Positions 797 through 56,500 are shown, counted from the stretch's first letter. The stretch: DNA of 64,000 bases from an uncultured bacterium (GCA_964434115.1 CAYSSX010000003.1:12554-76553); one strand, 5' to 3'. Program-made: numbers and translations. The notes: generated by a model not told the origin, from the letters alone.

Positions 797-3700
797 GTGC
801 TCGAAAATTTTGCGGGGAGGGCAAGGCCAATGTTTAAGACCTTTTTCGGGGGAAAAAAGACGAGAACGAAGGTCCTTGCCCTCTCCCTCATCACCACTCT
901 TTTAACTCTGGATATAAAGGAAGCTGGGGCTTTTGAGTCTTTTCTTCCGGCTCCCGGAGTTTCTTCTTTAAGCGATCAAAGTCTTCCTTCTGAAATTCTT
1001 CCGGAAATTGCTTTTCGTATTCCCGCGGCCTACGGACAAACCCTTCGCTCCTTTCAGGGAGACAAACCTTTTTTTGTCGTTCTTCTCCAGGATGCGCATG
1101 TTCATGAGGAGGCTCAGCTTCATTTGGCCGAGCTCCTTAAATTTCTTTCCGAAAATTACCGCGTCAAACTTGTCAGCGTGGAAGGTGCTGAGGGTGAGCT
1201 CGGTACGCACGCGGTGAATGCGTTTCCCGATAAAAGCGCGCTCCGTAAAGCTGCGGGGTATTTTCTGAAAAACGGGCGTCTGACAGGCGCGGAGTATGCG
1301 GCCATGATTTTGGACCCGAGCCTTCGTCTCTTCGGTGCCGAAGACCGGAAGCTCTATGAACAAAACCGGGATATTTATTTTAAAACCCAGGAATTCCGCG
1401 GGCGTGATCAATCGGTATTGAAAGAGACGAGTGACCTTCTTCAAAAACTCTCACGCTATGTGTATGCGCCGGACGTTCAGGAACTGCTCAGGAGTGAGGA
1501 GAAGGCTTTTCAGGACAGCGGACGCCTGGAAACTTATGTTTACATGCTTGCTCAGAAAGCCCGTCATCTGGAAATTTCCGAACAGGCTTACGGCTCTATT
1601 GCAAAATTCCTCCAGGCCGCTGAACTGGAAAAACGCATTCAGTTCGAAGAAGCCCGTGAGGAGCTGGCAGCATTAGAGCAGACCCTGAAAATCCGTTTCC
1701 CTGGACAGGTGTGGGATTTACCGTTGACGGAAACCAGCGATGCGGGCGGAGAATGGCGGCGCCGCGACTGGGCCAAGATCATCGCGAGAGCAGAAGAAGC
1801 GGGGCTGGGCGAACAATTTCCTCAGGCTTTGCGGATGGCGCAGTATTTTGAAGTTTCCCGCTCTTTGGGAATGAACCTGACCCAGGAAATACGCGCCTTG
1901 GCCGCGGCAGTTAAAGAAAAACTTCTGCTCACTGACACTGAGAAAAAATTCGACCAGTTTTTGCAGGCCATCCGGATTTATGAATCTTTCCTGAATCTTT
2001 CCCTGACGCAGGAAGACGCGGAATTCTTTTTTCCGCACCGGGCTCTTTTCTCTTCACAGAAAATACGCGAATTCGTGGAGCCTCTCTTGCGTGAACAGCA
2101 ATTTGAAAAAACACTTCCCGCGGACCTGGATCTGCTTGATAAGGATCTTCCCGAACTCGAAAAGTTTTATCAGGCCGCTTTGCTTCGTGACAAGGTGCTG
2201 GTGGAGCGCACGGTGAATAAAATGCAGAAAGAACGCGCTTTGTCTTCGGCGCTTGTGGCCGGAGGGTTTCATACCGCCGGCATTGAACGGCGTTTACGGG
2301 AAAAGGGAATTTCTTTTGTGACCGTGATGCCACGGATGACGAAAGTGGACGGCGAAGAAGAAAGTAAAAAACGCTATGAAGATGCGCTCAGCGAAAAGCC
2401 TTTGACCCTTGAAGATATTTTTAAAGTGACGGCAGAGAATTCAGCCCAGGCCAAAACTCAGGATACCCGGTTCCAGCTTGTGGCCTGGCTGATGAGTTCG
2501 GGGCCGGCAGTTCCGGGAGAAAAGGAATCCCGTATCCGGCCGCTTTTCTGGCTGGCGGCAGTGGAAAGTCTTCTGGGCGAGGAGCGCGTAAGCCCTGCCA
2601 TCCGTGAGCTTGAAAAACAGGCGGGAGAAGTTTCCGATGAAGGCTACCGCAGTGAGTTGAGAGACGTTCTGCGTGAGCTTGAAGGCGGAGTGCTGGAACA
2701 GCGTTCAGAAGACATGAAGGTGTATTGGCAGCGTTTGCCGGAAGGGGCTTTCCGGGCGGTGGTGAAGGCAAGCGGGAAAGACCGCCTGAAACTGGCGGCA
2801 GTTTTTGGGGTCCGCCGTTCCGTGCCTATCGTTGATCTGGGCGGGGATGAGATTCTTTCTGTTTTGAAAGTGGATGGTTATCTCGTGCCGGAAAAAGTCC
2901 GCCGGCAGTTTGATGCGAAGGATACAAGCGCCCGCCTCGCGGAAGAGCAGACGGCCGCGAGGGCTGAGCTCCGGACTCATGAACAGGACAGCTTTCGCAA
3001 AGATGTTGAAGAGAGGCAGCAGCAGTGGCTGGAAGAAACCCTTGAAAAAGTGAACCGGATTTTTGCCCAGGCCGAAGCCTATCTTGAACGCCAGGAAACG
3101 ATCGACTCTGCGAAGCTTTCACGTTTTCTCGAGCAAGGCGTGACCGCGGCCCTGCGCGAACTCGAAGACCTCAAGGATACGGAATTTCATCAGGTGGCGG
3201 ATGCCGCGCTTTCCGCCCGCTTCAAGGAGCGCTGGAATGACCTTTTGGCGCGCATTGGGGTTCGTGCTCCGGAAGCCGTCGAACAGTTGAAAAATCTCCT
3301 GCCTGCTTTACTGGATTCAGAAGCGGCCACAGCGGAGGCTGAAGATGTTTCCCTGACCGGACTTCTTTCGACGTACCGCGGTGACGGAACTTTTTTTCAG
3401 ACCCATTCACTGGAACAGATTCAGCAGGCGCTGGAAGACTTTCAAAAGCAAACGCCTTCAGCGGCCCGTGAAACCCGTGTTCCCGGGAGTGTCCGGTTTG
3501 CCGCGGGCCTCATTCTTTTTTATGTGATTCCGGGAACGGCTGCTTATTTTCTTCAAAACATGAGCCTTCCCGCGGTGATTCAGACGCTTCTTTTTATTTT
3601 CTCCATGCGCGTGGGGTATCTGGCCTTGACGCTGGCGCATGAGTGGACTCATTTGTCAGCCGCGGTACTCACCGGGGCGGGCAAGGACGCCTTGACGAGA

Positions 3701-6700
3701 ACCAATCTCACCGGGTCTCTGAAAATCCGGGAATGGGCAGCGGGAATTTTCGCGCCGCTGGTAAGGACCCCGAGGGTCATGATCCCGGCGCTTCGTTTTG
3801 GAAAGAATACTTCCCAGCATTCCCTGGTCCGTGACGCGGCCTGGATGATGAGCGGGCTGGTGGCCTTGGCCGGTATTGTTGCGCTGGTGGTCCTTACGCC
3901 GGGGCTGGAAAATATTTTATCGCGTTCTACGGTCGCGGGTGTTGCCGTCGGCTTTGCTTTGTCTTTCTTCGCGGGTTTTTGGTCCGATATTTTACGGCCT
4001 GCACCCAAAGGCGTTTATTGCTGCGGTAACTACGGGGCAGCGTATTTGGATACATCAGTTCAGCCGCCCGTTGGGGGACAGGATTTAACGTCCGTCCGCG
4101 CAAGAGTCGTGAAGACAAAACGCGGACAGCTTCCGGACGCTCTGCGCGGGGAGTATAAAGGCGAGGTGAGAAAGCGCTCTTTGCTGGAAAGACTGCGCCG
4201 TCCCTTTGGAGGCCTAGAAGCGCCCCGGACAGCCACATGGTTTGATGAACTTCTGCTTAAGATGTCGAAGGTCACGGTGATTCGCGGTGAGCAGGCCGGC
4301 GGTGAAATTGGTTACGCGGGTTCCGGTTCCGCAAGGATTGTCCGGTTACAGGGGCATTCACGTTATGGAACTTCCAGCGCGCCTGCGGTTAAAGAAACGC
4401 AGCCTCATACATGGCTTCCGGAACGCAAGACGCCGGTGTGGAGCATTGATAACGGCGTCATGCCGCGCGGTGCCCAGACAAGGCGCGTCAGTACCTTTGT
4501 CACGCACAATGGCGACTTTGATTTTTGGGAGTTATACGGCAAACAGGTTTCTTTTGATCAGGTCGCTGTTTGGCTGAAAAAAGTTTTGGGGGTTGGGCAC
4601 CCGGCCAAGGGCGATACGCCCAAACTGGCCGGCGTCATTGATTATGTTTTTGCCCAGGGGATGTGGGATGCGGCCCTGCGGTTTGCGTTTTATGAGAATG
4701 TGGCGGACACCCTCGATTTCCGCGGACTGCCACAGAGAACGTGGAAGCAGTGGGGCGCGCGTATGGACGAACTTCTTTCCCGGCTTATCCGCGAAGGCCG
4801 CGTGTCGCCTGTCCGTGAATGGTCGCACGTGCCGCAGGCGGAGCGCGATTTGATTGCGGCTGAAGCGCTCCGGATGTTCTCCGAAAGTGATGACTTCAAA
4901 AAGTCCGTTCCGGAGTCAAAGCGGGAAGGGTTTATTAAGGCGGCCGTGCAGGCCTTTCTTGAAAATGATCTCTACACAACAGCGCGTATCGTCAAAGCCC
5001 GTTCCGAAGGCTCTTTTGGCGTGATTATTACGTCCTCTCTGCAGCCGGAAAAAACGGTTTTGTTTGCGCACTCTCAGCCGCTTTTCATTGGCTATGACCC
5101 AAGCCTGAATTTAATGGCCTGGGCCTCGGAAGCCGCAGCGCTTAAAGTTGCGTTCACCGTGGATGGAACGAAACGCACGCTTCCTTACCGTTTTGACATG
5201 GACCAGGAAACAGGCGAGATTCTTGAGCTCCGGATGGATGATGGGCTTGGGAAAGAAGGGGAAACGGCCCAGTCCCTGCGTGTTTATTCGGAATTTTTGA
5301 AGCGGGAGCTGACACCGGAAGAAGTGTCCCGTTCCGGCCGTGTGATTGACACGCGTAATAATCCGCTGATTGACCCGCTTCCGGATTTTGATGAAAAGGA
5401 TCTGGTGGGTTCAGACATCAAGGAAATTCCCTACATTTTAAACAAGATCGAACAGACCTGGCAGGACCCCGAAAGCTTTAACCGGCAAAGCGCCTATGCG
5501 CTTCTTGAAATGCTGGTGGAAAAAGATATTGAGAAAAGAATCCGCGCCGGCGTGAGTTTAAAACTTTTAAACGGGCTGGCTGAGCAGATCCGCGAAACAG
5601 CCGCTCTGATCCGCGCGGATTTGATGAGCGGAAAAGTTTCAAATCAAAATCTTCCGGCTCTTGTGGAACGTGAAATCGCTGCCATTAACCAGGCCGCGCT
5701 TTTGAATCCGCCTCACGTGCCTGAATCCGGTGATTTTTTCCCGGAAGGGCAGTCCACTGTTGATGTTTTGTTGACGGGCTTTGAAGTCAGCCAGTGGTTT
5801 GGCGAACAATTTATTTCGGACCTCAGCCGTTTGTTTCCGGCCCTGACGGTGGAAGCGGTTTCATCGAATAAAGTTTTGAAGTCCTTGAAGGAGACCCGCT
5901 TCCGCGGCGGCGCCCGGGAATTCCGGATTCAGGAAAATAACCGTGTGGTGAAGGTGGATAGAAACACGGTGGTGCTTGCCGTGAGCCAGTCGGGACAGAC
6001 CTTTCCGACATTGAACGCGACCATTGCTTTGCGGGCTGTGCTGGGTGAACGGGTGTTTGCCATGACTGGCGGCCTGGATACCCTGATGGGGCGTGCCGTG
6101 GGACAGGTGTATGCCAAGGGTGCTCCCTTCAGCGGAAGAATTTTTGATAATTTGAGCGGACTCCGGCCGGCAGAACCGAGCACCGTGGCAACAGCTGCGG
6201 TCCATGCCACCTTTACCGAGATGCTGCTGTACCTCGGGACTGAAATGAAACGCATTTATGGAGAACGCAGGCCGCTTGGAATGGCGTTTGAATTAGAGGA
6301 CCTGGATATTTTGCGCAAGCTCCGGGATGAGCTGAACACGCAGGGACTGCCCGCGATTGCCGGTGCCTCTCCGCGCAGTTCCAAGGAAACAGTGGACTCT
6401 CCGGTGCGCCGCGACTTGATAAAACTTGGAAAGCGCTGGGCTCAGCATATCCTGGAACCTGCGATTGTGATTGGTTTAGCGACCTTGATTGTCGGTATTG
6501 CCAGCTATTACGGGCTTCCGTTTTTCCCGTCATCCTGGGGATGGCTGCAGGCGGTATCACCGGCAAGCCTCGTCGACTTTTTGATTTCTTTTGGAATTCC
6601 GGTACCCAGTTCTGTGGGAGCGGTGGGTAACTCCATCTTTTTTGTTCTCGCGAACGGAATTTACGCCATCATTCTTTTCCCCTGGTTTCTTTCTCTTGGT

Positions 6701-8833
6701 CTGCGTTTGATTCAGCGGCGTTTCCCTCTGCTGGCCCGCACGGGAAAAAGAACCCTTGTGATCGGGGACATTCCTTACGTGCATCAAACATTGGAAGCCT
6801 ACGTGAGTAAAATTCTTTCACTCAGTTATGGTTTTGCCTCGCTGGATGTTCATGCCGCCAACCCGCGTGATCATTATCTTCCGCGCTTTGGCCACCGTAT
6901 TGTCCGCGGACTTTTGTCTCTTTTGATGGAGCCGGATGCGCGCCTGCACAGTCATCAGGATGAAGTCGGCGCTGTGCGTATGACCAAGAGCCAGCAGGAA
7001 GGGGTCCGGAACTTTCAGGTCGGAGCCGAGGTTTTTACGCTGGGCCGGAAGATCGCGGGGAAGGATGCCCGTGAGAAGGAAGTGGCTCTTCCCGTGGCCA
7101 ATACCCCGATTCAGGTTTCAATTCCTAATTTCATCCGCAAGGTATCCACCGTGGTAACGCTGGATGACGCGGCCCGCCGGACACTTGCCAGCCAGCTGGA
7201 GAATTTCGCGGAACTGTTCCGCGGCAAGCCTTTGCATTTGGCCGCAAAGGAACTTGGAATTTCAATCGGCCTTTCGGGAAATGACCTCGTGAAATTCGAA
7301 GAAGAGTTCCTTCTTTATGGAGAGCGCCAGCACCTTCTGGAACGGATGTATGAGAAACGTCTCGGTTCGTTTGAACGGCTTGTCTCAGCGTACGTGATTT
7401 TTTGGGCGCTGGGAAGAATCGTTTCGCGCGCCTTTCGTTTCTTAAGGTTGACCTACGATATGGCGGCCAGCCAAAGCCGGACGCGTGTGGCCACAACGCG
7501 TTCCCCGGACGCGGCCGTTAATCTGAATCTTCTTTTTTCACAAATCGGAGAGCCGGAATCCGCCAGCCGTTTTAATTCGCCGGCCGTGCCCTTGCCTTTC
7601 CGGGTTGAGACCGCGGAGACGGTTCTTCAAAAAAGCCGGGAATCCGAAGTGACGGTGAGCGCTCCCGTGGCTCAAAGAAGACGTTCGAACACAGGCTTGA
7701 CCCGTGACGACCGCCGGAAGCTTTACCAGCGCGGCATTGAAATGGGGCTTGAAAAAATCGTGTTTGATCTTTTTATCGAGCTCAAAAACCTGGAAGACCA
7801 GGCCCTGGAGCCTGCGGTGGCCGCGCATCTGGACCGCAGTTACACAAGACTGCGTAAGGAAGCGGCTGAAGACCTTGAATGGTTTCAAGGCAAAATTGAC
7901 CCGACTCGTCTTGAAGAACTGAAGTATCTGATTCGCCAGGCGTTGACCAACAGCCGCGAAAGAGTGCAGAAACTTAGAAGCCTGCAGGCGCCTGCAGAAC
8001 GTGCTCCCCGTGTTCAGAACCAGCCCAGTGAAAGTTTTCTGAGACTGCGGCAGGCGCAGAGCCGTTTAAAAGATCAGGAAGAGGTCCGCCGCCAGATTGC
8101 GAAAACTTTTGTTCCTCTTAAGCAGGAACGGGCTGCTGAAAGTTCTTCCGCGCCCGGTTCTGCGCGGGCCGAGCTTCGCGAAGCGCCCCCGGAAGCCTTG
8201 AATCCAGCGGAGTTGTCGGAAGCGCTTCTTTCCAAGAGCAGTCTGGCATGGCTTTCGGAGGAACGACGTTTATTGCCCGGCCTTGCTAGGGCGGAAGCCG
8301 CGGGAATTGATCTTGAAAAGGCTTTTACTGAATTTGCCGTGACCCCGGGAGTTGTGCAGGCCTTAGGGCTTCCCGGTTCTTCCCGGGCTGGAACCCGCGG
8401 GTATTATCTTTTTGAATACCGCGCGCCTGAAGACCGTGAACTTCTTAAAAAGCTTCTGGTCCAAAAAGCGCCCGGCATTGTGGTCGCTGTTTTCGCGCCT
8501 GTTTCAGAGAGGGCTTCCCTGGTAAAGGAATTTACCGAGGCCGTGGCCCAGAACAATTTTGCTTTTCCAGAAACGGATCTTGTGACTTACCTGAACGAGA
8601 AATCTCGCGAGCTTAAAGTTCTGCGCAATGAAGTGATTCATTTCAGGCCGCTGGTCCATGTGAAGTTGAAGAAAAATTACGAGGAAGCGCTTCAGGTTGG
8701 AGCCTTGCCGCTTGCGGCCGGAGGGATTGTCATTCGTTCCGAAAGTCCTGTGCCGGGTGCCCGTGAACTCAGGGTCGCGGATGTTATTGCGGAAGTCTTG
8801 AAAGCCGCGCTCCTTGTGGAACGGTCGGCGTAA
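797..8833 (+). CDS. Giant multidomain protein 1 (2678 aa). It has an N-terminal hydrophobic anchor, the shared two-His N-module, a polytopic membrane segment containing HExxH, a GlmS-like class-II amidotransferase region, a SIS domain and a second membrane segment
   Basis: Uninterrupted ORF of 8037 nt. An alternative start is ATG 830, preceded by GGAGGG. The N-module motifs are VVLLQDAHVHEEAQ at 1088..1099 and GGFH at 2261..2272, both shared with the other two giants. LAHEWTHL (3638..3652) lies in a hydrophobic stretch. GHSRYGTSSAP..QPH and VTHNGDFDFW (4505..4513) resemble GlmS N-domain motifs. VVLAVSQSGQT (5984..6001) is the SIS signature. Confidence 0.8.
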   Translation: MLENFAGRARPMFKTFFGGKKTRTKVLALSLITTLLTLDIKEAGAFESFLPAPGVSSLSDQSLPSEILPEIAFRIPAAYGQTLRSFQGDKPFFVVLLQDAHVHEEAQLHLAELLKFLSENYRVKLVSVEGAEGELGTHAVNAFPDKSALRKAAGYFLKNGRLTGAEYAAMILDPSLRLFGAEDRKLYEQNRDIYFKTQEFRGRDQSVLKETSDLLQKLSRYVYAPDVQELLRSEEKAFQDSGRLETYVYMLAQKARHLEISEQAYGSIAKFLQAAELEKRIQFEEAREELAALEQTLKIRFPGQVWDLPLTETSDAGGEWRRRDWAKIIARAEEAGLGEQFPQALRMAQYFEVSRSLGMNLTQEIRALAAAVKEKLLLTDTEKKFDQFLQAIRIYESFLNLSLTQEDAEFFFPHRALFSSQKIREFVEPLLREQQFEKTLPADLDLLDKDLPELEKFYQAALLRDKVLVERTVNKMQKERALSSALVAGGFHTAGIERRLREKGISFVTVMPRMTKVDGEEESKKRYEDALSEKPLTLEDIFKVTAENSAQAKTQDTRFQLVAWLMSSGPAVPGEKESRIRPLFWLAAVESLLGEERVSPAIRELEKQAGEVSDEGYRSELRDVLRELEGGVLEQRSEDMKVYWQRLPEGAFRAVVKASGKDRLKLAAVFGVRRSVPIVDLGGDEILSVLKVDGYLVPEKVRRQFDAKDTSARLAEEQTAARAELRTHEQDSFRKDVEERQQQWLEETLEKVNRIFAQAEAYLERQETIDSAKLSRFLEQGVTAALRELEDLKDTEFHQVADAALSARFKERWNDLLARIGVRAPEAVEQLKNLLPALLDSEAATAEAEDVSLTGLLSTYRGDGTFFQTHSLEQIQQALEDFQKQTPSAARETRVPGSVRFAAGLILFYVIPGTAAYFLQNMSLPAVIQTLLFIFSMRVGYLALTLAHEWTHLSAAVLTGAGKDALTRTNLTGSLKIREWAAGIFAPLVRTPRVMIPALRFGKNTSQHSLVRDAAWMMSGLVALAGIVALVVLTPGLENILSRSTVAGVAVGFALSFFAGFWSDILRPAPKGVYCCGNYGAAYLDTSVQPPVGGQDLTSVRARVVKTKRGQLPDALRGEYKGEVRKRSLLERLRRPFGGLEAPRTATWFDELLLKMSKVTVIRGEQAGGEIGYAGSGSARIVRLQGHSRYGTSSAPAVKETQPHTWLPERKTPVWSIDNGVMPRGAQTRRVSTFVTHNGDFDFWELYGKQVSFDQVAVWLKKVLGVGHPAKGDTPKLAGVIDYVFAQGMWDAALRFAFYENVADTLDFRGLPQRTWKQWGARMDELLSRLIREGRVSPVREWSHVPQAERDLIAAEALRMFSESDDFKKSVPESKREGFIKAAVQAFLENDLYTTARIVKARSEGSFGVIITSSLQPEKTVLFAHSQPLFIGYDPSLNLMAWASEAAALKVAFTVDGTKRTLPYRFDMDQETGEILELRMDDGLGKEGETAQSLRVYSEFLKRELTPEEVSRSGRVIDTRNNPLIDPLPDFDEKDLVGSDIKEIPYILNKIEQTWQDPESFNRQSAYALLEMLVEKDIEKRIRAGVSLKLLNGLAEQIRETAALIRADLMSGKVSNQNLPALVEREIAAINQAALLNPPHVPESGDFFPEGQSTVDVLLTGFEVSQWFGEQFISDLSRLFPALTVEAVSSNKVLKSLKETRFRGGAREFRIQENNRVVKVDRNTVVLAVSQSGQTFPTLNATIALRAVLGERVFAMTGGLDTLMGRAVGQVYAKGAPFSGRIFDNLSGLRPAEPSTVATAAVHATFTEMLLYLGTEMKRIYGERRPLGMAFELEDLDILRKLRDELNTQGLPAIAGASPRSSKETVDSPVRRDLIKLGKRWAQHILEPAIVIGLATLIVGIASYYGLPFFPSSWGWLQAVSPASLVDFLISFGIPVPSSVGAVGNSIFFVLANGIYAIILFPWFLSLGLRLIQRRFPLLARTGKRTLVIGDIPYVHQTLEAYVSKILSLSYGFASLDVHAANPRDHYLPRFGHRIVRGLLSLLMEPDARLHSHQDEVGAVRMTKSQQEGVRNFQVGAEVFTLGRKIAGKDAREKEVALPVANTPIQVSIPNFIRKVSTVVTLDDAARRTLASQLENFAELFRGKPLHLAAKELGISIGLSGNDLVKFEEEFLLYGERQHLLERMYEKRLGSFERLVSAYVIFWALGRIVSRAFRFLRLTYDMAASQSRTRVATTRSPDAAVNLNLLFSQIGEPESASRFNSPAVPLPFRVETAETVLQKSRESEVTVSAPVAQRRRSNTGLTRDDRRKLYQRGIEMGLEKIVFDLFIELKNLEDQALEPAVAAHLDRSYTRLRKEAAEDLEWFQGKIDPTRLEELKYLIRQALTNSRERVQKLRSLQAPAERAPRVQNQPSESFLRLRQAQSRLKDQEEVRRQIAKTFVPLKQERAAESSSAPGSARAELREAPPEALNPAELSEALLSKSSLAWLSEERRLLPGLARAEAAGIDLEKAFTEFAVTPGVVQALGLPGSSRAGTRGYYLFEYRAPEDRELLKKLLVQKAPGIVVAVFAPVSERASLVKEFTEAVAQNNFAFPETDLVTYLNEKSRELKVLRNEVIHFRPLVHVKLKKNYEEALQVGALPLAAGGIVIRSESPVPGARELRVADVIAEVLKAALLVERSA
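1088..2272 (+). other. Shared N-terminal module of giant 1 (region between the two invariant His motifs)
   Basis: QDAHVHEEAQ ... VSVEGAEGEL ... GGFHTAGI align with QDAHANLEAQ / VALEGSAGELHPEY / GGFHSEG in giant 2 and QDAHANPEAQ / VAVEGARGDLHPEY / GGFHAQG in giant 3. Confidence 0.6.
3490..4000 (+). other. Polytopic membrane segment of giant 1 with an HExxH motif inside a predicted helix
   Basis: Several 18-25 residue hydrophobic runs occur here (GLILFYVIPGTAAYFL, TLLFIFSMRVGYLALTLAHEWTHLSAAVL, MSGLVALAGIVALVVL, VGFALSFFAGFW). HEWTH is at 3638..3652. Confidence 0.45.
4250..5000 (+). other. GlmS-like class-II glutamine amidotransferase-like region in giant 1, lacking the N-terminal catalytic Cys
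   Basis: VIRGEQAGGEIGYAGSG / GHSRYGTSSAPAVKETQPH / FVTHNGDFDFWELYG parallel GlmS RGYDSAGLA / GHTRWATHGEPSEVNAHPH / VVHNGIIENY. No Cys is present at the equivalent of the Ntn nucleophile position. Confidence 0.45.
5860..6290 (+). other. SIS (sugar isomerase) domain in giant 1
   Basis: NTVVLAVSQSGQTFPTLNATIALRAVLGERVFAMTGGLDTLMG matches the GlmS SIS1 signature SQSGET..T..AL. Confidence 0.55.
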
Positions 8834-47500: not shown

Positions 47501-50500
47501 GGAAAAAGCCTGGGATCTTTCACTGTGGATCGCCGCTTCTGGGACAGCATGATGCGTTCTTACCGCCAGGAATTGAATGAGGAAAATCCCCTTGAGCAGT
47601 CAAAGAACCGGGCGGATACGGACGGTGATTGGTGGATCCCTCTCACGAGCCTGGAGTTTGTTCTGAAGAATGCCTCGACGGATGTTTCGCAGTTTAAGAA
47701 TGCAAAGGCTCTGAAAGAATATCTTGTGAAAGAGGGGCTTGACCAGCCCGAGTTTACGGACCGGGTCATCCGCCTTTATCTGAGCTCACGGAAAAACTCT
47801 TCTCAGCCTTTTATGAAGGTCATCAATGCCGGAGCCAAATCTCTTTGGTGGGATTTTGGAAATGTCGGAGTCGAGGAAGGAACCACAGAAGGAATCTTCA
47901 GGCGAAACATCCTTGTTCTTCTTCAGGATACAGCGGAAGGCCGTTTGGCGCGGCAGTTCTGGGGAGTGCCAGAACTTTTCACGGGAACATTGCCCGGAAC
48001 GCAGGTTCAGGTTCAGAATTCCATCATCACAGCTTCTGAAATTTTGCCCGGATCGACCGGCGCTATTCAAAATTCCGTCATTTCAGGGGTCCGGGGAGCT
48101 TTCAACTTTGAAGTCTCCGACAGTTTCCTTTACGGGATTACGAATGAAAGCGCTTCCCCGCAATCACCACTTAGCGTCAAGTCCGAACATGGGATTGGCT
48201 ATCAGTTAAAGCTTTCCGCGCCGCTTGCTATTTCCTCGGGACACATTCTGGCAGGCGTTCCAGTTCTTGGAGTAGACGTTGTTTTGAGAACAACTGAAGC
48301 GTCAGATGCAAAACAACTGTGGCTCCGGGCTATGTATGAAAATCTATTAGCTTTTGGATCCGCGGCTTATCTTATCCGTCTGGCTGAAGCTAACCGCAGC
48401 GCCCAAATCGCAGGCGTCTCTGTTTCGAACCTTGAATATCGCGGCTTCTTTGAGCATCAGGGGATGCAGCATGCCGTGATCGAAGGGCGTGACGCTTCAG
48501 ATCAACCGGTTATCGCAGTCCTGCACGTATCTTCTGTTGATCAGATAACAGACGCAGAACTTCATGAGGCCATTCTTTCGCCGGGCATCGAAGGCGCAAT
48601 CTTTTCCGGGAAACTCTATGACAGTTCCAGAGAAATTCTTCTCCTTACTTACGCGGCACGATCCGAATTGCGCGGTCTTGAGATGGATTCTTTGGCGCCT
48701 GAAATCCAGACCTTATTAGCGGCTACCGCCGATGAAGCGGCCTTGAAACAGGAGTTTCTGAGGCTTGTGTATGAAAAGCTTTCGCCGGAAAAAAGCGCGC
48801 AGGCTGCCGCTGTTTTTAAGGCCGTCCGCGCAGACAAACTCCCCTATGAGTACCCGCAGTTTTTTGAGGGGGTGATAAGTGCCCGGACCCAGGCATCCGG
48901 CCAAACATCTTTCAGAGCCTATTTGGAAACGAATCTTTCTGCTAACCCTGCCGAAATCAGCGCTTTTGCGGCGGATATTCTCCGGGCCTTTTCAAAAACC
49001 GCAGATTTTGAAAGGGCTACGACGGCTTTTTTCCGGTTTGATCAGACTTCGACCATTAGGTTTGTGGACCAGCTCATTGAAGAGAAAACGCTTACAGGCG
49101 ACAAATCCGTTACGGTAAAAAGCTTGGGAACTTCCAGCGGAGAAGAGCCTTATACGCTGGCCATGATTGTTTATTATGGATTGAAAAAATATTACGAGGC
49201 TCACCAGCGGGAAATATCGTCAAAAGAAGGGATTGGGACCTTCCAGGCTTGGGCAGAGAGCTGGAATGTTTCAATTGAAGCCTATGATTATGACCTGGCG
49301 AATTTAGTCCTCGTTCAAAACGGTTTGTTTGATTTTCTTTACGATGACCCTATGGGCGGATTTGGTTACAACGATGAAGACAATTATCTCAATGAAGCGT
49401 GGCTGTATTCAAAGGACAGAAATACCGGGGCTCTTGGGCCTGCCGAAACATGGCGGTATTCTCCAGAAACGGAAGCTGGAGCCTCTTTCCCGTTTCGCTC
49501 AACGCTTAGCAAACGGTTGAAATCGGGAGAAAAGATCGGCTTTAAATTTTCTGCCGTCGATTTGCTGAAAAAATGGATGAAGCCTGTTTATGTTGATTTG
49601 CGGGGACCCGCTGACGCTGAAGTTCTGAGTCTTACCCAAGCGAATATTATTGTTGTGAGTTTTCTGCGGGGCGCGGCATATCTCGATTCGAAAGATGATT
49701 ATCTTGTTCAGGCTATAGAAAAAAGCCGGGATGCAAAACACAGCAGTCTTGCCCTTGCCGGATCTGCGATCGTGAAGCCCGCTCAGCGTTCGGAGCTCAG
49801 AATAAGCACAGAGACGGAGAGCCTTGACAGTACACTTTTGAACGCCGTTGGAAAATTGGATATCGAAACATCCGAAGGAGTTAAAACGCTAAAACTGCTT
49901 GTCAGCCGGATCTTGAAATCGGCATTCACCCGGACACTGTCGGCTGAGCAGCGGACAAAAATAGCAGATCTGTCAGGTTTAACCGAGGACAGCGAACAGT
50001 TGGAAGTCCTTCAGGACATTCTTGACGATCCCGAAGTTCTGCAGGTTTTCAGAGATGATCTTGCTGCTGATGATTCGGGCGATGTTCGTTTTGACGCGGC
50101 CGCCCAAACCTTGAGCTATACACCCGGATATGCATTGGCCGTACAGGCTGATATTGACGAAGCGCTGCGCACCTTTGAAACGGGCAGTTATGTCGATGTT
50201 CAGGGGGCTATGATAAAACTTCTCCGGCAGGTGAGCCTGGGATTTGCGGAGGAGGTCCGGAAGAGTCTGAAACAGAGTTTGGTTCGTGAGTTTGAACAGT
50301 GGCGGATTTTGATCAAAGTCTTGGAAACCGAGATTGGTGCCAGATCTGAACTTCGTTCATCAGAAAAAACCTATTCGGAAGCTCTCCAATTTACATCCCG
50401 TCCTGTGGTGACGGTTTCCGGTGATTCCGCAAAAGTTGAAATTACTTTCCGGACAGATGCCGCCACGCTTGAAAAATCAGAAATGTTTTTTCATTGGGGA

Positions 50501-53500
50501 GACTATACGCAAGGCCCGCTGGATTGGACGGATCACGAAATTCTAAATTGGGACATCGAAGATCTCGGCGGCGGTATTTATAAAGCATCAAAGGTGATTC
50601 AGCCCGGCCGTATCGGTGAGTTCGGAGTCACAGCCTACGCGCAGAACCGCGTGACGGGAGAGCGGGTTTGGCAGGGAAAAAACCGAGGTGATGATGCTGT
50701 GATGGGGATTGACCTTCTTCCGAAAACCGTCCTTGAAGACCTCCGGCGTAATCTTAAAAAACAGGAAGCCATTCAGGAGATCCGGCAGAGCCTTATTGAC
50801 ACGAATCCGTATGACAGCTTCATCACTGTGATCCACCGTCTCGTGGTTGATGAAGAAATGCGGGGCATGGGAAAAATTGTTTACGACGCAGTCAAAGATG
50901 TCCCGCGCTTCCGAACGGTTCTTTCTCAGATTCACAGCCGTCTGAAAGAGGACAGTAAAGTCTGGAATCCGTTTTTCAAGGAAAGGGCGCTTCCTGCTTT
51001 GCATGCATTAGAAACGCTCGGCATTGGAGAGATTGTTTTTGTAGCTCCTGAAGGTCCTCATGCGATTGCCGGCGGTTTGGCCAAGGTCATTGAGGGCCTT
51101 GCCAAGGCTTTGTCAGAAAGCGGTGTCTCAGTCACGGTCATCACGCCTCTCTATGAAGACAATCAAGGTAAGAAGCATGAATCCGCAGAAGCTTTGATCG
51201 AAAAAGGTTTCATGACAGAAAGCGGGGAAAGAGTTCCCATTAAGGCCGACCCCGTCGCTGAGATCGGAATGACCTTTGGCCCCATTTATGATTCGGGAAC
51301 GCACATGACCGGTTTGAGCGATGACAAAATCCGGACCTTTCAAAGAACAGTTCAAAGCCGGGTCTATGAAGCCAAAGCAGAAGGCGTCCGGTACCTTTTC
51401 CTCAGACACCCGCGCCTTGCTGACAAGCTTTACGCAAAAGTCCCGTCTTCCGAAGAGTTAAGGCGCGCTGTCTTTCTGTCCCGGGCCGCGCTTGAAGTGG
51501 TTCAGAACAGGGCGCTTGGCGTTGACCCGCAGCTCATCATTTCCAATGACTGGGTCACCGGGTTAATCCCGACGTTCCTTCAACGTGATCCGCGTTACTC
51601 CCAAGACCCCCTTCTCAAGGATGTCGGCACGGTTCATATGATTCACAATTACGGGCGCGACTATCAGGGGCGTGTTTTTACGAATCAATATGGGTTGGAT
51701 CTCTGGCCGCTTCTTGGACTCAAGCACGACTTCTACAAAGATGTTGCAGACCCCAATGATGACCGGTTCCTCAACATCACTTCAAGCGCCATGGAGCACG
51801 TCAACCGTTCCATTCTGACGGTGAGCCGTCCGTATGCCGAGCAGATGCTCACCCCTGAAGCAGGGGAAGGTCTCGACACTATTCTCAATCCGCTGAAAGA
51901 AATTCTGTTTGGAATCAGTAATGGAATTGATGAAGCGGCGGCCCGGAAAACATTCTGGAAAAAGGGTGAAGAGGCCCGTCAGGCCCTCGAACTTCCAGGG
52001 CTTATGGAAGACTATTCCGATGAAGGCTTTTTGAAAAATCTTTGGGACTATAAGAATTCGGCGCTTGTTAAAACTCAGAAAGACTTCGGTTTTACCGAAG
52101 ACCCAGATGCGATCTTTTTGTCGATGATCGGACGCGTTGCCGAGCAGAAAGGCATTCAGCTTTTGACGGATACGGAAAATGGAGTGACGGTTCTGGAAAG
52201 CCTTCTCCAGATGAATCCGAAAGTTCAGATTTTTCTGGGCGGGCCTGTTGCAGAAGGGGATGGGACGGCGGAGCGGCTGCGGGATTTGACCCGTGAACTT
52301 GAGCAGAAATATCCGGGCAGAATCCGGGGGGAATACACCTTCATTCCGGGAGCCACAACCCTTCAGGTCATGCTGGCAAGCCGATTCTTTTTAATGCCTT
52401 CCCGCTATGAGCCAGGGGGCATTACGCAGCTGGAGTCGTTGGCGTCGGGAACGCCTGTGGTGGCAAGAAATGTGGGGGGGATTGCCGCAACCTTGATTAA
52501 TTATTTTGATCATCCCGATAATGGCAACGGCTTTTTGTTTACAGATTTTACCGGCGCAGCCCTTCGAGGAACGCTCGCAGCGGCTTTTGATGCAGCGGCT
52601 GGCGACCCCGGCCTTCTTAAGACCTTGTCCAACCGTGCTGCCAATGCTCAAAACGACTGGCATGACCGGATTCCTCAATATCTTTCTCTGCTTCAACTCG
52701 GGGCCGGCGTGATCCGTCCTTCGGAAACGGCATTTCAGACAGATTATGCTTATCTCTCTGACCGGACAGGCATTCTTAACGACCTTCGCCCCCGCAACCG
52801 CGCAGAATTGAGATCGGATAAAGGGAACCCCTATATACTGGAAGAGAATGTCACCCGTGGATTTGCATTTCTTGATGAAATGCATGGGGGCCGCGTGAGC
52901 ACGGCGATTTCAAACGCGGTAAAACGCGCAGCGCCAGGAACTAAACCCAGAGTGCTCCTCTTAGAGGTCGGACGCGGAGTTGTGCCTGCCGAATTGATAA
53001 ACCAGAGAGACGAAAAGGGTGAAAAAAAATGGCCCGATGTTGAGTTCTTTTCGTCCGGTGCGGAAGACCTGCTTTTTTCTGCAGAAGAACTGGAGAAATT
53101 CATGGGCAATATCAGCCCTGAGGAGGCTGCGGTCATCGCGGATACTATCAGAGGCCGTTTCGCCGCTGCGGATCTTGACTATGATCTTGGCGCTTTTGAG
53201 AATTCCACATTTGATGTCATTGTCATGACGCAGGCTGTGATGGAGTACATGAGAAATATCCCCGGAGTGATTGACCGTCTTTCCAGAAAATTAAATATCG
53301 GAGGAGAGTTCATAACCGATCTGGACATCATGAGTATTAAGGATCCCGAGACGCAGGAAAGAGTGGATACGAAAGCTTTCTTTGAGTCGTTGAATCCAGG
53401 TTATGAGATCTATGGAATTACCCTGAAAGGCACACCGCTGCCGTACGACTTTTTTGCAGGACTTCGTTTCACGCGCCTGTCAGAAGACATTCCCAAAATT

Positions 53501-56500
53501 CCGCTGGATGCGACACAGAGTTCAAAAACCTATACAGTGCAGCGCTCTGAGCTGCGCGCGGAACAAGCCAGCGCTCCCCAAAACGTGCGTTTGAACGGCG
53601 TTTCACCTGAAATGCTGAAAGTAGAAGCCGGCGAGCTGGTTTTTTGGCGTCCGTCCCAGCGTCAAATGAACACGTCTCTGAAGAGGCCTTATGATGATGA
53701 AAAGGTCGTGGTCCAGAAAATACACAATGAGCTTGAAACTTTGGATACCCTTTGGATGCAGATTATGGGCGAGCTTCAAGAGCGGAGCTATTCCCCTGAT
53801 GCGCTGGATATTGTGGAGCTAATGGTTCGACGTGCGATGGAGGTGATACGGACCCAGGAGATCAAAGCGGAAGTGGCGCTCCGAACGGTGAAAGAGGAAA
53901 TGCTGGCGGCCGCTAAAGAAGAATCCGGTGATGATCTGGATTTAACGACGGCAGCAGGAATCGTAGATAAGAGGCTTCTCCCCGCTTTGGAAAACCGTGA
54001 AGAGCTTGTGTATGTTGAAAGCGGTCTCGATGAAGAGGCGAGGAAAAAACTCTTCATTGATCGAGAGAGAGACCAAGTACTCGCGAAAGTTTTTGAAATC
54101 ATTCTTCGACTGCCGTATGGGCTGCACATTTCCCCCGAGGATTACGGAGAAGATGAAAAAGACAGGGTCAAAAAGCTGATCCATACGGAACGCCAAATAG
54201 CGGACGGACGGCGCGCCATGCTCACCAATGACCTACTGCCGGAGATCCTGAAAGTTGTTGAACAGGGGAAGAGGGCCCAGTTTGCAATTAATCAGGTCAT
54301 CAAAAAGAAGGTCGAGCCGGGCTTGGAGCGCTTAAAAAAGATGGTGGACGACAGCCGTAAAACAGGCGGAGATACCCTTGTCGGTTCAAGACTCATCAAA
54401 GTTTTTGAAGAACAGAGATCTCTCCTGGAAGGGATTCGCGACGAATTTGACACGTATGATTTTATTTATGATTCGTCAGACCTGCCTGCGGAAAAGGAAA
54501 AGAAGCGGCGCGGCGAGCTTGAACGGTTTGAAGCCGTTTACAGGGACACCCTGGTTTTTTTCCCAAATCCCTCTGAGGATCTAAAAGCGTTTCTGGAAGA
54601 ACTCAGAACCCTGGTTACGTATGAAATCCGGGAGCGCGGCCGCACGCTGGACTATGGTATCGCGAAATTTTTCAGTCAAAAGGGATCGGAGCGGTATAAA
54701 GATATTCCCACTGAGCAGCTTGATTTCCTGATGCGGTTTTACAACGTCAGCCAGTATGGCATCGTGAAGCGGAAAGGCGACAAGAACCTTGTGGTTTTCG
54801 CGGAGAAGATCCGGCATGAAGCCGATTTTGCCGAGCTGATGATGAGGAACAAGGGGCGCGGAAGAGTGGTCTCAATTGCGACGCTCAAACGGTTCGCTCC
54901 GGATGACGCGCCCGGCCGGGTACCGCACTGGTTTATTTTTTCAAAAGACCAGGGCATTGTTCCGATTGAAGCACTCGACTTTGAAGATCGTAAAATGGAT
55001 TTCAAGGACCTCAAAGACGGAGACTTCGTTCTGGTGGACGGCAAAAAAGGAATCGCTGTCGTGAACCCGAACTCGGAAACTCAGCGCGATATGATCGAAC
55101 GCGGCAAGGTTTACAAATACCTGGATGAGTATTTCCTTCCGCGCGTGTCTCTGCCGGCTCTTGTCAATGGACGACCGTTCTACTTTTGGGCGGATGAATC
55201 ACGTTTGGATTACCTGAAGCGCGACGGCGATCAGCCGAGATTCCAGAAATTCGGAGCCCGGGGGATCGGACTGCTCCGGCTTGAGCAGTTGATGGGAGAA
55301 ATGGACCGTGCGGGCATTGAGTTCGACGAAATGCGCCTCAGCCTTGCAATCGAAGAAATGCTTCTGCCGTTTTCCGATCCTGAAGCGCCGTTGACGATCC
55401 GACTTTATGATGTTCAAGGAGATAAACGCCCGAAGTTTTTTGTGGAAGGAAAAAGCGAGGAACAAATCGAGGGTATTCTCAAGACGCATTCCAACATTCG
55501 CTTTTACCTGGACGAACGGGAGGAATTCCGCAATCAGCGTGAATTCGGAAAAATGCAGATCAAGGCGATTTACCGGGCTTATCTCCGCGCGCAGAAGAAC
55601 AACTTACAGATTCTGCTCCCAAATCTGCTGAAAGTGGAAGAGGTAGAAGCGTTGAAGAAGCTTTTTGATGAAGCGCGCCAGGAGCTTATCCGTGAACTTG
55701 AAGAAGAAGCTCTGATTCAGGTAGAAGCGGCCGTGGTGCGCCGGCACGGGTGGATCACAGATATTAATGCTTTGGAAACCGAAGCCCTTGAGAAGGGGCT
55801 CGACTGGTTCAGGAATCAGCTTCTAAGTAAGCCCGAAATGAAGCCGCACGAGGAGCAGTTCGGGCAAGAGTCCGACGCTGATTTTGCCAAGGTGGCTGGC
55901 CCTGATTTTGGAAAGAAAGTCACTCTGAGTTTGAGCAAAATCCGGTTTGGATACATGTTCGAAGAGGTTTCGGCTGTTGAGCAGCGCAGCGACATTATGA
56001 AGGCTGTCCTTGCGCAGCATCAGGTTGCGGAGGCCAAGCCTTTTTTTGGAATCGGTACGAATGACCTTCAGAAGTCAGTACTTGAGTCCCGCGAAGAAAC
56101 CAATGATGAGATGAACAAGCTGCACCCCGGACTTGTGAAGGCTATAGCGGATCTTGAGGGGACTGCGCGTGAGCTAGGACTTCATCTGACCGTTGAAGGC
56201 CAGTGGGGCGGATCCGCCCGCATGCTGTTTGCCGCCATGGCGCTTGAAATCTATCACGGGCGTAAGATGCAGCTCGTTGCGCCCACCAATAAAATCCCTG
56301 AACTTCTTGAAATGATCCGGATGACTGAAGCCGCGGATCTGGAACACGTTTTTGACTTGGGATCCAGCTATAAGCCGGCATCCATGAAAACATTGATTGA
56401 CCGGATGGAAGCCGGGGATCTTCCTGAGCTGGATGAGATGAACCTTGTCGCGACCATGCTGCAAGACCGTATTGAGGCGAAGATTGTGGCCAGTTCTGAT

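What the first reader, a model, noticed from the sequence alone, without database searches (positions are those of the whole stretch)
2650..53558. Recurrent R(S/A)ELR pentapeptide at predicted domain boundaries in all three giants, which may be a processing or linker signal
I count at least ten occurrences by eye. In giant 1, RSELR is at 2650..2661, RAELR at 2965..2976 and RAELR at 8170..8181, with a near-match ARELRV near the C-terminus. In giant 2, RSELR is at 39790..39801 and 43441..43452. In giant 3, RAELR is at 46687..46698 and RSELR at 48662..48673, 49789..49800, 50345..50356 and 53547..53558. A specific pentapeptide should occur about 0.02 times by chance in some 9300 residues. The copies use different codons (tcg gag ctt cga, tct gaa ctg cgc, tcc gaa ttg cgc and others), so selection is acting on the peptide and not on a DNA repeat. 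The sites fall almost exactly between the domains I could delineate: after the N-module in each giant, after the UDPGDH domain in giant 2, and in giant 3 on both sides of the FPGT-like region, after the CheR-like domain, before the CBM/GT5 region and before the PEP-utilising module. Each is followed by a Ser/Thr/Glu-rich stretch. This is what cleavage sites in a polyprotein, or docking or hinge motifs in a megasynthase, would look like.
Basis: seen in the sequence. Interest (0 to 1): 0.85.

Follow-up and report, generated by a model that had tools for sequence, protein, structure and literature searches.

The report
Junction motif in Omnitrophota modular giants
A five-residue signature, Arg-Ser/Ala-Glu-x-Arg, sits at nearly every boundary between the enzyme-sized modules of a very large, apparently undescribed family of exported giant proteins in Omnitrophota bacteria; it most likely tells a protease where to cut them apart, but cleavage has not been shown.

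Summary
R[SA]ELR occurs 11 times in the three giant ORFs, against 0.07 expected, and nowhere else in the window. Codon choice at the sites is as varied as codon usage predicts, so selection acts on the peptide.

The giants belong to an Omnitrophota family with about 8,800 clusters at 50% identity. Its layout is: signal peptide, a conserved ~600-aa N-module, variable cassettes, and a ~300-aa C-module ending in Ala. In 154 members, RSELR and RSEVR are the two commonest pentamers. The general motif R-[S>A]-E-[LVMAIST]-R occurs 630 times against 12 expected.

Sites lie in disorder-prone linkers. The first follows the N-module and the last precedes the C-module. Orthologues keep the motif while its flanks drift. 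Cassettes recur in different proteins at different positions, bounded exactly by motifs. Some genomes use another motif, [AG][ASQ]SLG, in the same positions.

Best reading: a proteolytic processing code for secreted polyproteins (confidence 0.55). The N-module has a TIKI/ChaN/EreA-like predicted fold and invariant His/Glu/His, so it is the leading protease candidate. Neither cleavage nor the protease is shown. The M48 link and the megasynthase reading are not supported.

The parts
797..8833 (+). Giant 1 (2678 aa): signal-peptide-like N-terminus, N-module, 104-aa cassette, 1735-aa cassette with 6 TM-like segments, C-module
37461..44372 (+). Giant 2 (2303 aa): N-module, one 1218-aa cassette containing UDP-glucose dehydrogenase, C-module
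44528..57499 (+). Giant 3 (4323 aa): N-module, six cassettes (unknown; CheR-like; 185 aa unknown; GlgA-type glycogen synthase; methyltransferase-like; PEP-utiliser), C-module
929..2476 (+). G1 N-module (aa ~45-560), divergent subfamily shared with loci L067/L070/L071
37578..39560 (+). G2 N-module (aa ~40-700)
44675..46507 (+). [not shown]
2648..2662 (+). Junction motif RSELR (G1 aa 618), first site after the N-module
2960..2974 (+). Junction motif RAELR (G1 aa 722). The homologue P0119 has a motif at the same projected position.
8165..8179 (+). Junction motif RAELR (G1 aa 2457), start of the C-module
39786..39800 (+). Junction motif RSELR (G2 aa 776), conserved in orthologue P0005 (aa 768)
43440..43454 (+). 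Junction motif RSELR (G2 aa 1994), start of the C-module. The G2-specific insertion relative to P0005 ends here.
46685..46699 (+). Junction motif RAELR (G3 aa 720). It is RSELR in two orthologues and lies in the pLDDT<40 tail of the N-module model.
48659..48673 (+). Junction motif RSELR (G3 aa 1378), invariant in orthologues
49787..49801 (+). Junction motif RSELR (G3 aa 1754), invariant while its flanks diverge
50342..50356 (+). Junction motif RSELR (G3 aa 1939), start of the GlgA cassette that recurs in P0051 and P0059
52799..52813 (+). Homology to the L001 orthologue ends right after it.
53543..53557 (+). Junction motif RSELR (G3 aa 3006), equivalent to P0007 RSELR 671. The 2300-aa G3-specific insertion ends here.
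56546..56560 (+). Degenerate junction motif RNELR (G3 aa 4007), equivalent to P0007 RSELR 1672; start of the C-module
8180..8830 (+). G1 C-module, ends ...ERSA
43455..44369 (+). G2 C-module, ends ...HLATQA (52% identity to P0005)
56561..57496 (+). G3 C-module, ends ...IAAAA
41553..42767 (+). UDP-glucose/nucleotide-sugar dehydrogenase domain inside the G2 cassette. It keeps the active-site GGSCFPKD, which holds one of the two Cys in G2 outside the signal peptide.
51029..52693 (+). GlgA-type glycogen/starch synthase domain (GT5+GT1) inside the G3 cassette 1939-2758. The domain match ends 36 aa before the next motif.
54998..55708 (+). PEP-utilising (EI/PPDK-like) domain inside the G3 cassette 3006-4007

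Best explanation
R-[S/A]-E-x-R, which is R[SA]ELR in this genome, is the inter-module junction signal of a large Omnitrophota family of Sec-exported, cysteine-poor modular giant proteins. The family layout is: signal peptide, conserved N-module, a variable number of unrelated cassettes (enzymes and membrane segments), and a conserved ~300-aa C-module ending in Ala. One motif lies in the flexible linker at every junction. The most likely function is a site-specific proteolytic processing signal. On this reading a sequence-specific endopeptidase shared by all paralogues of a genome cuts at each junction and releases the N-module, the individual cargo proteins and the C-module. The leading candidate for that endopeptidase is the family's own N-module, which has a TIKI/ChaN/EreA-type predicted fold and invariant His/Glu/His, acting in cis or in trans on sister giants.

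Shown here: the motif, its specificity to this family, its junction position, its conservation, the cassette shuffling bounded by it, and its genome-specific variants.

Inferred: export, cleavage itself, the scissile bond, and the identity of the protease. I put cleavage at about 0.55. Given that cleavage occurs, I put the N-module as the protease at about 0.45.
For: Enrichment and sharpness:
- The window has 11 sites against 0.07 expected.
- In 154 family members, RSELR (142) and RSEVR (123) are the two most frequent pentamers. They outnumber the invariant N-module pentamers, which occur once per protein.
- The general pattern occurs 630 times against 12.4 expected. R1, E3 and R5 are each about 127-fold enriched given the rest of the motif.

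Family specificity:
- In 80 genomic loci the motif occurs essentially only in N-module ORFs. The apparent exceptions are N-module variants or giant-ORF fragments split by masked N runs. Ordinary ORFs carry it at chance level.

Junction position:
- The first site is at median aa 688 (IQR 640-736), just after the N-module.
- The last site is at a median of 295 aa from the C-terminus (IQR 246-321).
- Only 10 of 630 sites lie before aa 550.

Linker context:
- With the motif residues masked, TOP-IDP disorder propensity peaks on the motif: 0.169 against 0.092 at random positions, p=1e-60.
- Residues 660-771 of the G3 N-module model, which include the site at 720, have pLDDT of 22-36.

Evolutionary units:
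- G2 equals P0005 plus an insertion that ends at RSELR 1994. G3 equals P0007 plus a 2300-aa insertion that ends at RSELR 3006.
- A 67%-identical orthologue keeps all five sites as RSELR while the flanks change and acquire indels. Homology stops right after the fifth site.
- The GlgA and methyltransferase cassettes recur in P0051 and P0059 at other positions, with motifs exactly at both projected ends.
- In an all-vs-all BLAST, internal HSP starts peak at motif offset 0 and ends at offset +4. About 21-25% of endpoints fall near a motif, against 5.5-6% for randomly placed sites.

A co-evolving reader:
- Two sites in the same protein share the position-4 residue with probability 0.451, against a null of 0.202.
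- Some genomes replace RSExR entirely by [AG][ASQ]SLG, with the same first-site and last-site logic.
- This choice of variant is shared by paralogues from different old N-module subfamilies within one genome.

Protease candidate:
- H92, E124 and H540 are invariant and D90 is nearly so (N in about 16 of 119 members). This mirrors the 2His/2Glu site of TIKI-family endopeptidases such as RRSP (PMC6254334).

Export:
- The N-termini look like Sec signal peptides.
- Cys is depleted 10-12-fold, while the catalytic Cys of the UDPGDH cassette is retained.
Against: - No cleavage product has been observed. Everything here is sequence inference.
- No N-module column cleanly separates RSExR users from xxSLG users; the only candidate is N198D.
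- Members with few or no motifs still keep the catalytic-looking residues. N-module specificity therefore does not visibly track the motif.
- The motif variant is a property of the genome. That fits an unlinked trans-acting protease at least as well as it fits the N-module.
- Some members show no recurrent junction motif at all.
- The TIKI superfamily also contains esterases and haem binders, so the fold does not imply a peptidase.
Confidence: 0.55

Rival explanations
1. The motif is an uncut recognition or hinge element. It is bound but not cleaved, for example by the N-module, by a chaperone or by export machinery handling the giant segment by segment. Alternatively it acts as a structural linker cap. 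On this reading the giants work as intact multi-enzyme proteins.
For: The motif lies in linkers and at every junction, which a docking or hinge signal would also do. No protease is identified. The 2026 preprint describes Omnitrophota 'multi-enzyme metabolic cluster' giants as single membrane-associated polypeptides. AF2 does not dock the cis motif onto the N-module.
Against: A hinge does not need three near-invariant charged residues. It also would not be expected to be swapped wholesale for an unrelated small-residue motif (xxSLG) in all paralogues of a genome. The cassettes are unrelated enzymes that are freely reordered, which argues against a fixed assembly line. The motif also separates the conserved N- and C-modules from the cargo, as processing sites do in MARTX-type and viral polyproteins.
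Confidence: 0.25
2. The motif is a post-translational modification site in the linkers. Candidates are Ser phosphorylation or glycosylation, or Arg modification, written by a genome-encoded enzyme to regulate or protect the linkers.
For: The motif is short, sharply defined and exposed, with a preferred Ser at position 2 (77%). The variant is genome-specific, which implies a dedicated reader or writer.
Against: Ala replaces Ser in 23% of sites, including 4 of the 11 here, so Ser cannot be an obligatory acceptor. There is strictly one site per junction, and the sites bracket the N- and C-modules; a modification model does not explain this. The alternative motif has no Arg or Glu.
Confidence: 0.08
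3. The motif is a co-translational signal. The nascent-chain sequence would pause the ribosome or translocon between modules so that each cassette folds or is exported before the next emerges.
For: The motif lies at every module boundary of very long ORFs. Selection is on the peptide and not on the codons.
Against: No known bacterial arrest peptide resembles it. A pause signal would act through the universally conserved ribosome or Sec machinery, so it should not switch to a different motif between genomes. It would also not need to be absent from all other long proteins.
Confidence: 0.05
4. The motif is chance, a compositional artefact, a DNA-level recombination scar, or a piece of a repeated folded domain such as the RSELR conserved region of PL7 alginate lyases.
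For: Cassettes are shuffled between proteins, which could suggest a recombination site. In the literature RSELR and RSEVR appear only as a PL7 conserved region.
Against: The window has 11 sites against 0.07 expected, and the family has 630 against 12. Codons at the sites are as diverse as codon usage allows and the flanking DNA carries no information. The flanking peptide sequence is not conserved. There is no Pfam alginate-lyase hit and no YFKAG motif, and only a single Q[IV]H (G3 aa 2134), which is not associated with a motif site.
Confidence: 0.01

Closest known systems
MARTX (multifunctional autoprocessing RTX) toxins of Vibrio and related bacteria
   Same: Both are giant secreted proteins with conserved N- and C-terminal regions that flank a variable, reshuffled array of unrelated enzyme cassettes. 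In MARTX toxins the cassettes are released by cuts at short linker sites between effectors (general knowledge; PMC6254334 abstract). One MARTX effector, RRSP, is itself a TIKI-fold endopeptidase.
   Different: There is no homology. No RTX or glycine-rich repeats were found, and no C80 cysteine protease domain; the giants are almost Cys-free. The candidate protease here is an N-terminal TIKI/ChaN-like module. The cargo consists of metabolic-type enzymes (UDPGDH, GlgA, EI-like, methyltransferases), not known toxins. The junction signal is a strict pentapeptide with genome-specific variants, not a loose Leu-small site.
Viral polyproteins with protease/cleavage-site co-evolution (e.g. potyvirus NIa, flavivirus NS3, coronavirus Mpro sites)
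   Same: One ORF encodes many functional units separated by a short, sharply conserved motif in linkers. The motif varies between lineages but is uniform within a genome. A protease-like domain is embedded in the same polypeptide.
   Different: These are chromosomal genes of cellular organisms next to rpsB-tsf-pyrH-frr. There are several paralogous polyproteins per genome. They carry a signal peptide and appear to be exported. Cleavage has not been demonstrated.
TIKI / TraB / ChaN / erythromycin-esterase superfamily
   Same: The N-module model's best structural neighbours are ChaN, EreA-like proteins, HopBA1, TraB, EreC and RRSP. The invariant D-x-H after strand 1, E after strand 2 and GGFH after a later strand mirror the superfamily's 2His/2Glu site (PMC6254334).
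   Different: No sequence-profile match was found to any Pfam or NCBIfam model or to any PDB chain, and Foldseek gives nothing significant. The core is split by a ~330-residue helical insertion. Activity is unknown.
Omnitrophota giant proteins described by West-Roberts et al. 2023 and the 2026 complete-genome preprint
   Same: Same phylum. The content is similar: starch synthase, GT1, methyltransferases, signal peptides and TM segments, matching the 'multi-enzyme metabolic cluster' class.
   Different: Those papers report no junction motif, and one states that cleavage points are unknown. They propose C39 or S8 peptidase domains as processing enzymes, and neither domain was found in the giants here. 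Whether the proteins above 30 kaa carry this N-module or motif was not tested.

Membership tests
TIKI/ChaN/EreA/TraB superfamily (N-module) | alpha/beta core with a parallel beta-sheet flanked by helices, structurally similar to ChaN, EreA or RRSP | tested here: met
   [not shown]
TIKI/ChaN/EreA/TraB superfamily (N-module) | 2His/2Glu (His-Glu pair) catalytic constellation at the strand ends | tested here: inconclusive
   D90-x-H92, E124 and H540 lie at the ends of predicted strands. H92, E124 and H540 are invariant in 119 members of at least 1500 aa, and D90 is N in about 16. Spatial clustering could not be checked because no model coordinates were available.
TIKI/ChaN/EreA/TraB superfamily (N-module) | Sequence-profile membership (Pfam TraB_PrgY_gumN, Cofac_haem_bdg, Erythro_esteras) | tested here: not met
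   No Pfam or NCBIfam hit for whole proteins or for the mini-core profile, and no PDB sequence hit.
TIKI/ChaN/EreA/TraB superfamily (N-module) | Hydrolase or endopeptidase activity | not testable with these tools
   Needs biochemistry.
Processed polyprotein (viral-type or MARTX-type) | Several independent functional units in one ORF, separated by a conserved short linker motif | tested here: met
Processed polyprotein (viral-type or MARTX-type) | Demonstrated cleavage at the motif | not testable with these tools
   No proteomic data available.
MARTX toxins | RTX/glycine-rich repeat regions and an InsP6-activated C80 cysteine protease domain | tested here: not met
   No such Pfam hits. The giants contain 0-4 Cys each.
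NRPS/PKS-type megasynthase with docking or linker motifs | Carrier protein, condensation/KS/AT domains in assembly-line order | tested here: not met
   None found. The cassettes are UDPGDH, GlgA, methyltransferase-like and EI-like, and they are reordered between homologues.
PL7 alginate lyase conserved region R(S/T/N)E(L/V)R | Jelly-roll domain with accompanying QIH and YFKAGxYxQ regions | tested here: not met
   No alginate-lyase Pfam hit and no YFKAG. There is a single Q[IV]H, not associated with a motif site.
Substrates of the neighbouring M48 peptidase | Conserved genomic or functional association of an M48 gene with the giants | tested here: not met
   The M48 gene at 30406..31365 is absent from syntenic L001. 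No conserved neighbour was found in 80 loci.

The most novel reading that the evidence does not exclude
Omnitrophota encode a phylum-wide system of secreted polyproteins. An N-terminal TIKI-fold endopeptidase module reads a genome-specific cleavage code (RSELR, RSEVR, RSESR ... or xxSLG) and releases up to about 27 cargo enzymes per precursor. The cysteine-purged but catalytically intact cytoplasmic-type enzymes (UDP-glucose dehydrogenase, glycogen synthase, EI-like) would then work outside the producer's cytoplasm, for example in a host or prey cell. The universal [S/T/A]-x-Ala C-terminus, and the Ser-x-aliphatic ends that would be created by cutting after motif position 4, may serve as ligands for a tail-recognising step.
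Probability: 0.25. Interest if true: 0.9.

Novelty: new variant of a known kind. Interest (0 to 1): 0.8.

Why it matters
Omnitrophota hold the record for giant bacterial genes. [quoted passage not shown]

For at least the N-module family (about 8,800 clusters at 50% identity), the junction motif gives a residue-level map of the modules. That map makes several things possible at once:
- domain-wise structure prediction;
- targeted searches for junction termini in metaproteomes;
- simple cleavage assays using the N-module and RSELR peptides.

If cleavage is confirmed, this would be a cellular, chromosomal polyprotein system with a protease/site code that differs between genomes. It would also show a new way for ultra-small, probably host-dependent bacteria to export whole sets of enzymes. 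The motif alone is also a practical annotation tool for otherwise 'dark' giant ORFs.

Tried and rejected
- Pfam and NCBIfam scans of the whole giants, of single cassettes and of a spliced N-module mini-core found no model for the N- or C-module.
- A profile search of PDB sequences gave only chance hits.
- Foldseek against PDB gave nothing significant. The afdb50 library was unavailable.
- The AF2 model of the C-module had pLDDT 48, which is too poor for a fold search. An alignment of 122 C-modules shows no conserved polar residues, so I rejected the C-module as an enzyme.
- A search for a conserved neighbouring gene (a dedicated protease) in 80 loci found none; the best cluster is present in 11 of 80.
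- I rejected the M48 peptidase as a partner because it is not syntenic. The Peptidase_Mx gene at 11856..12881 was noted but nothing links it to the giants.
- A search for N-module residues that co-vary with the RSExR/xxSLG choice found only N198D.
- I tested whether motif-poor members have lost the putative catalytic residues. They have not.
- I rejected a DNA-level repeat or recombination scar on codon diversity, and the PL7 alginate-lyase motif on the absence of its companion regions.
- Looking up the window's own contig through G3's exact sequence found nothing on record.
- The first literature search for 'RSELR' was swamped by the software name varSelRF.

Full report
**1. The observation**

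The window carries three giant + strand ORFs: G1 797..8833 (2678 aa), G2 37461..44372 (2303 aa) and G3 44528..57499 (4323 aa). Translation gives 11 exact R[SA]ELR sites: three in G1, two in G2 and six in G3. One site (52799, RAELR) was missed, as was a degenerate RNELR at 56546.

Composition predicts 0.07 sites, and 5000 shuffles never exceed 2. The motif is sharp: every SELR and every RSEL in the giants is RSELR. No [RK][SAT]E[LIVM][RK] exists in any frame of the remaining ~44 kb except one RSEMK.

Codons at the sites are as varied as codon usage allows. The chance that two sites share a codon is 0.13-0.18 for Arg and Leu, against 0.22-0.24 expected. The flanking DNA carries no information. 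Selection is therefore on the peptide.

**2. What the giants are**

The three proteins share only an N-terminal module of ~550-600 aa; G2 and G3 are 32% identical there and G1 is ~24% identical to them. Pfam and NCBIfam recognise only cargo domains:
- UDP-glucose dehydrogenase in G2;
- CheR-like, GlgA (GT5+GT1), methyltransferase-like and PEP-utiliser domains in G3;
- nothing in G1.

The surrounding genes are ordinary chromosomal genes, including rpsB-tsf-pyrH-frr directly upstream of G2.

A profile of the N-module matches 8,825 clusters (50% identity) at E<=1e-3 and 4,961 at E<=1e-30. Many of the best 150 are 2,000-7,800 aa long. In species-representative genomes nearly all of the best 80 loci, out of 195 confirmed, come from Candidatus Omnitrophota MAGs, often with several paralogues per genome.

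The N-termini look like Sec signal peptides: a basic n-region, a hydrophobic core and an AxA-like end. This is a heuristic reading, not a predictor call.

The family is strikingly poor in cysteine. It has 0.095% Cys over 451,000 residues. The window giants have 0.075%, against 0.94% in their 24 neighbours. Even so, the UDPGDH cassette keeps its active-site GGSCFPKD. I read this as export of catalytically competent enzymes. That is an inference.

**3. The motif is a family-wide junction signal**

*Frequency.* In the 154 retrieved members the two most frequent pentamers of all are RSELR (142) and RSEVR (123). RAEVR, RSEMR and RSEAR follow (70-71 each). These outnumber the invariant N-module pentamers, which occur once per protein.

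*Consensus.* The consensus is R-[S 77%/A 23%]-E-[V,L,M,A,I,S,T]-R. It occurs 630 times in 123 proteins, against 12.4 expected. R1, E3 and R5 are each ~127-fold enriched given the rest of the motif.

*Flanks.* The flanks are not conserved beyond a preference for P/S/A/G at -3..-1 and S/T/A/E at +1.

*Position.* The first site lies at median residue 688 (IQR 640-736), just after the N-module. The last lies at a median of 295 residues from the C-terminus (IQR 246-321), at the start of a conserved C-module. Only 10 of 630 sites lie before residue 550.

*Specificity.* In the 80 genomic loci the motif is confined to N-module ORFs. The apparent exceptions are N-module variants (IEDAH, IRDAH) or pieces of giant ORFs interrupted by masked N runs. 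Ordinary ORFs carry it at chance level.

**4. Sites are module boundaries**

Five lines of evidence agree.

(a) *Disorder.* With the motif residues masked, disorder propensity (TOP-IDP) peaks on the motif: 0.169 against 0.092 at random positions, p=1e-60. It returns to baseline by about -30 and +20.

(b) *Structure model.* The AF2 model of G3 1-771 is folded from residue 50 to 660. Its pLDDT is 22-36 from 660 to 771, which contains the site at 720.

(c) *Insertions between homologues.*
- G2 aligns with P0005 over residues 7-969 and again over 1991-2303. The G2-specific UDPGDH region therefore ends exactly at RSELR 1994.
- G3 aligns with P0007 over 1-678 and 3003-4323. A 2,300-residue insertion of five cassettes therefore ends exactly at RSELR 3006.
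- P0007's second RSELR corresponds to G3's RNELR 4007.

(d) *Orthologues.* A syntenic locus (L001: DsbD ... MTHFR ... rpsB-tsf-pyrH-frr, then a G2 orthologue and a 5,925-aa G3 orthologue) keeps all five aligned sites as RSELR at 67% overall identity. The linkers around them substitute and gain indels. Homology stops immediately after the fifth site, where a different cassette follows.

(e) *Cassette shuffling.*
- The GlgA cassette of G3 recurs in P0051 (aa 3300-4141) and P0059 (aa 1341-2187).
- The methyltransferase-like cassette recurs in P0051 (aa 5370-5606).
- Motifs lie exactly at both projected ends.
- In an all-vs-all BLAST of the family, internal HSP starts pile up at motif offset 0 (115 cases) and ends at offset +4 (140 cases).
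- 25.5% of starts and 20.7% of ends fall next to a motif, against 5.5% and 6.0% for randomly placed sites (maxima 8.8% and 9.9%).

The known domain matches in G2 and G3 never include a site. The GlgA match ends 36 residues before RAELR 2758.

**5. Something reads the motif, and it co-evolves**

Position 4 is homogeneous within proteins. Two sites in one protein share it with probability 0.451, against a null of 0.202 (maximum 0.238). Examples are 12/12 RSELR in P0048, 9/9 RSESR in P0123, and mostly RAEVR in P0104.

Members without any RSExR often use a different recurrent pentapeptide, [AG][ASQ]SLG. It appears up to 9 times per protein, roughly 39-fold over expectation in the richest protein (P0129). 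It follows the same logic: the first copy lies just after the N-module (aa 597-702) and the last lies 244-302 residues before the C-terminus.

The two variants are mutually exclusive at loci and uniform within genomes. All five paralogue loci of MAG OFTM55 use xxSLG and none uses RSExR. Yet these paralogues belong to at least two old N-module subfamilies that are as close to RSExR-using N-modules as to each other. In the window, G1, G2 and G3 all use Leu at position 4 although G1's N-module is only ~24% identical to the others. This is the pattern expected when all substrates in a cell must match one reader, as with viral polyprotein cleavage sites.

**6. Mechanism**

The best-supported reading is a site-specific proteolytic processing signal that releases the N-module, each cassette and the C-module.

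The leading protease candidate is the N-module itself:
- It is the only other feature that always accompanies the motif.
- It carries D90-x-H92 after strand 1, E124 after strand 2 and GGFH540 after a later strand. H92, E124 and H540 are invariant in 119 members of at least 1500 aa, and D90 is nearly so.
- This mirrors the 2His/2Glu site of TIKI-family endopeptidases such as RRSP (PMC6254334).

The caveats are real:
- Foldseek against PDB is not significant.
- There is no sequence-profile link to the superfamily.
- Spatial clustering of the residues could not be checked.
- No N-module column tracks the motif variant except N198D.
- Motif-poor members keep the catalytic-looking residues.
- The genome-level variant fits an unlinked trans-acting protease equally well.
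- No conserved neighbouring protease exists, and the M48 gene is not syntenic.

My estimates are 0.55 for cleavage and about 0.45 for the N-module as the protease, given cleavage.

Rival readings are an uncut docking or hinge element (0.25), a modification site (0.08), a co-translational pause (0.05), and chance, a DNA scar or a PL7-like folded motif (0.01, refuted).

**7. Comparison with known systems**

Functionally the closest analogues are MARTX toxins and viral polyproteins. MARTX toxins have conserved ends, a reshuffled effector array and autoprocessing at linker sites. Viral polyproteins have lineage-specific cleavage motifs that are uniform within a genome.

The family is a member of neither. 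It has no RTX repeats and no C80 domain, it is almost free of Cys, and it is chromosomal with several paralogues per genome.

Published descriptions of Omnitrophota giants mention no junction motif. One states that cleavage points are unknown. Whole-word literature searches for the pentapeptides return only PL7 alginate lyases. Within the searched library, the motif, the N-module/C-module architecture and the motif variants therefore appear to be unreported. I class the finding as a new variant of a known kind (processed modular polyproteins), with high interest.

Noticed in passing
window 797..8833, 37461..44372, 44528..57499; family proteins P0001-P0154: Extreme cysteine depletion. The three giants have 0.075% Cys, against 0.94% in the other 24 ORFs of the window. 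The whole family has 0.095%. The only Cys in G2 outside its signal peptide lie in the UDPGDH active-site stretch EGCGYGGSCFPKD, and G3's only Cys is in the signal peptide.
   Followed up: partly
C-termini: window 8819..8830, 44358..44369, 57485..57496; family-wide: 124 of 143 family proteins end in Ala, with consensus [IL]-x-x-[A/T/V]-[A/S/Q]-A-COOH (here ERSA, ATQA, AAAA). This resembles a ligand for a PDZ domain or tail-specific protease, or an ssrA-like tail. The ~300-aa C-module has no conserved polar residues. Its function is unknown.
   Followed up: partly
loci L031, L032, L035, L037, L044, L052, L061, L064, L077; proteins P0107, P0111, P0118, P0128, P0129, P0141, P0146: A second junction motif, [AG][ASQ]SLG, replaces RSExR in some Omnitrophota genomes (OFTM55, JACQQR, JAKQXH, Ca. 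Omnitrophus fodinae). It has the same placement after the N-module and before the C-module. The two motifs never co-occur at a locus.
   Followed up: yes
P0074, P0016, P0070; loci L082, L059, L054: Some long family members show no recurrent junction pentapeptide of either kind, although they keep the conserved N-module residues. They may use an unrecognised variant or may not be processed.
   Followed up: partly
window 3497..6691 (G1 aa ~901-1965): The 1735-aa cassette of G1 contains six TM-like hydrophobic segments and no Pfam domain. About half of the family members have TM-like segments inside cassettes.
   Followed up: no
window 53543..56545 (G3 aa 3006-4006): The PEP-utiliser (EI/PPDK-like) cassette contains no cysteine at all, although these enzymes normally use a catalytic Cys. 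It may be inactive or mechanistically divergent.
   Followed up: no
window 27313..44372 vs locus L001 1..13825: The gene order DsbD - (redoxin) - MTHFR - ... - rpsB - tsf - pyrH - frr - G2 - G3 is conserved in a related metagenomic genome. In that genome the M48 peptidase gene and the UDPGDH cassette of G2 are absent, and the G3 orthologue is longer (5925 aa, with an ELFV-dehydrogenase hit).
   Followed up: partly
window 10840..12881 (-) and 9218..10261 (+): An ATP-grasp (D-Ala-D-Ala-ligase-like) gene is paired with a Peptidase_Mx zinc-peptidase gene, and a histone-deacetylase-family gene lies immediately downstream of G1. No link to the giants was found.
   Followed up: no
G3 aa 190-520 (window ~45095..46087): The TIKI/ChaN-like core of the N-module is interrupted by a ~330-residue all-helical insertion with its own conserved residues (e.g. 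R496, D/E497). This insertion has no structural match.
   Followed up: no
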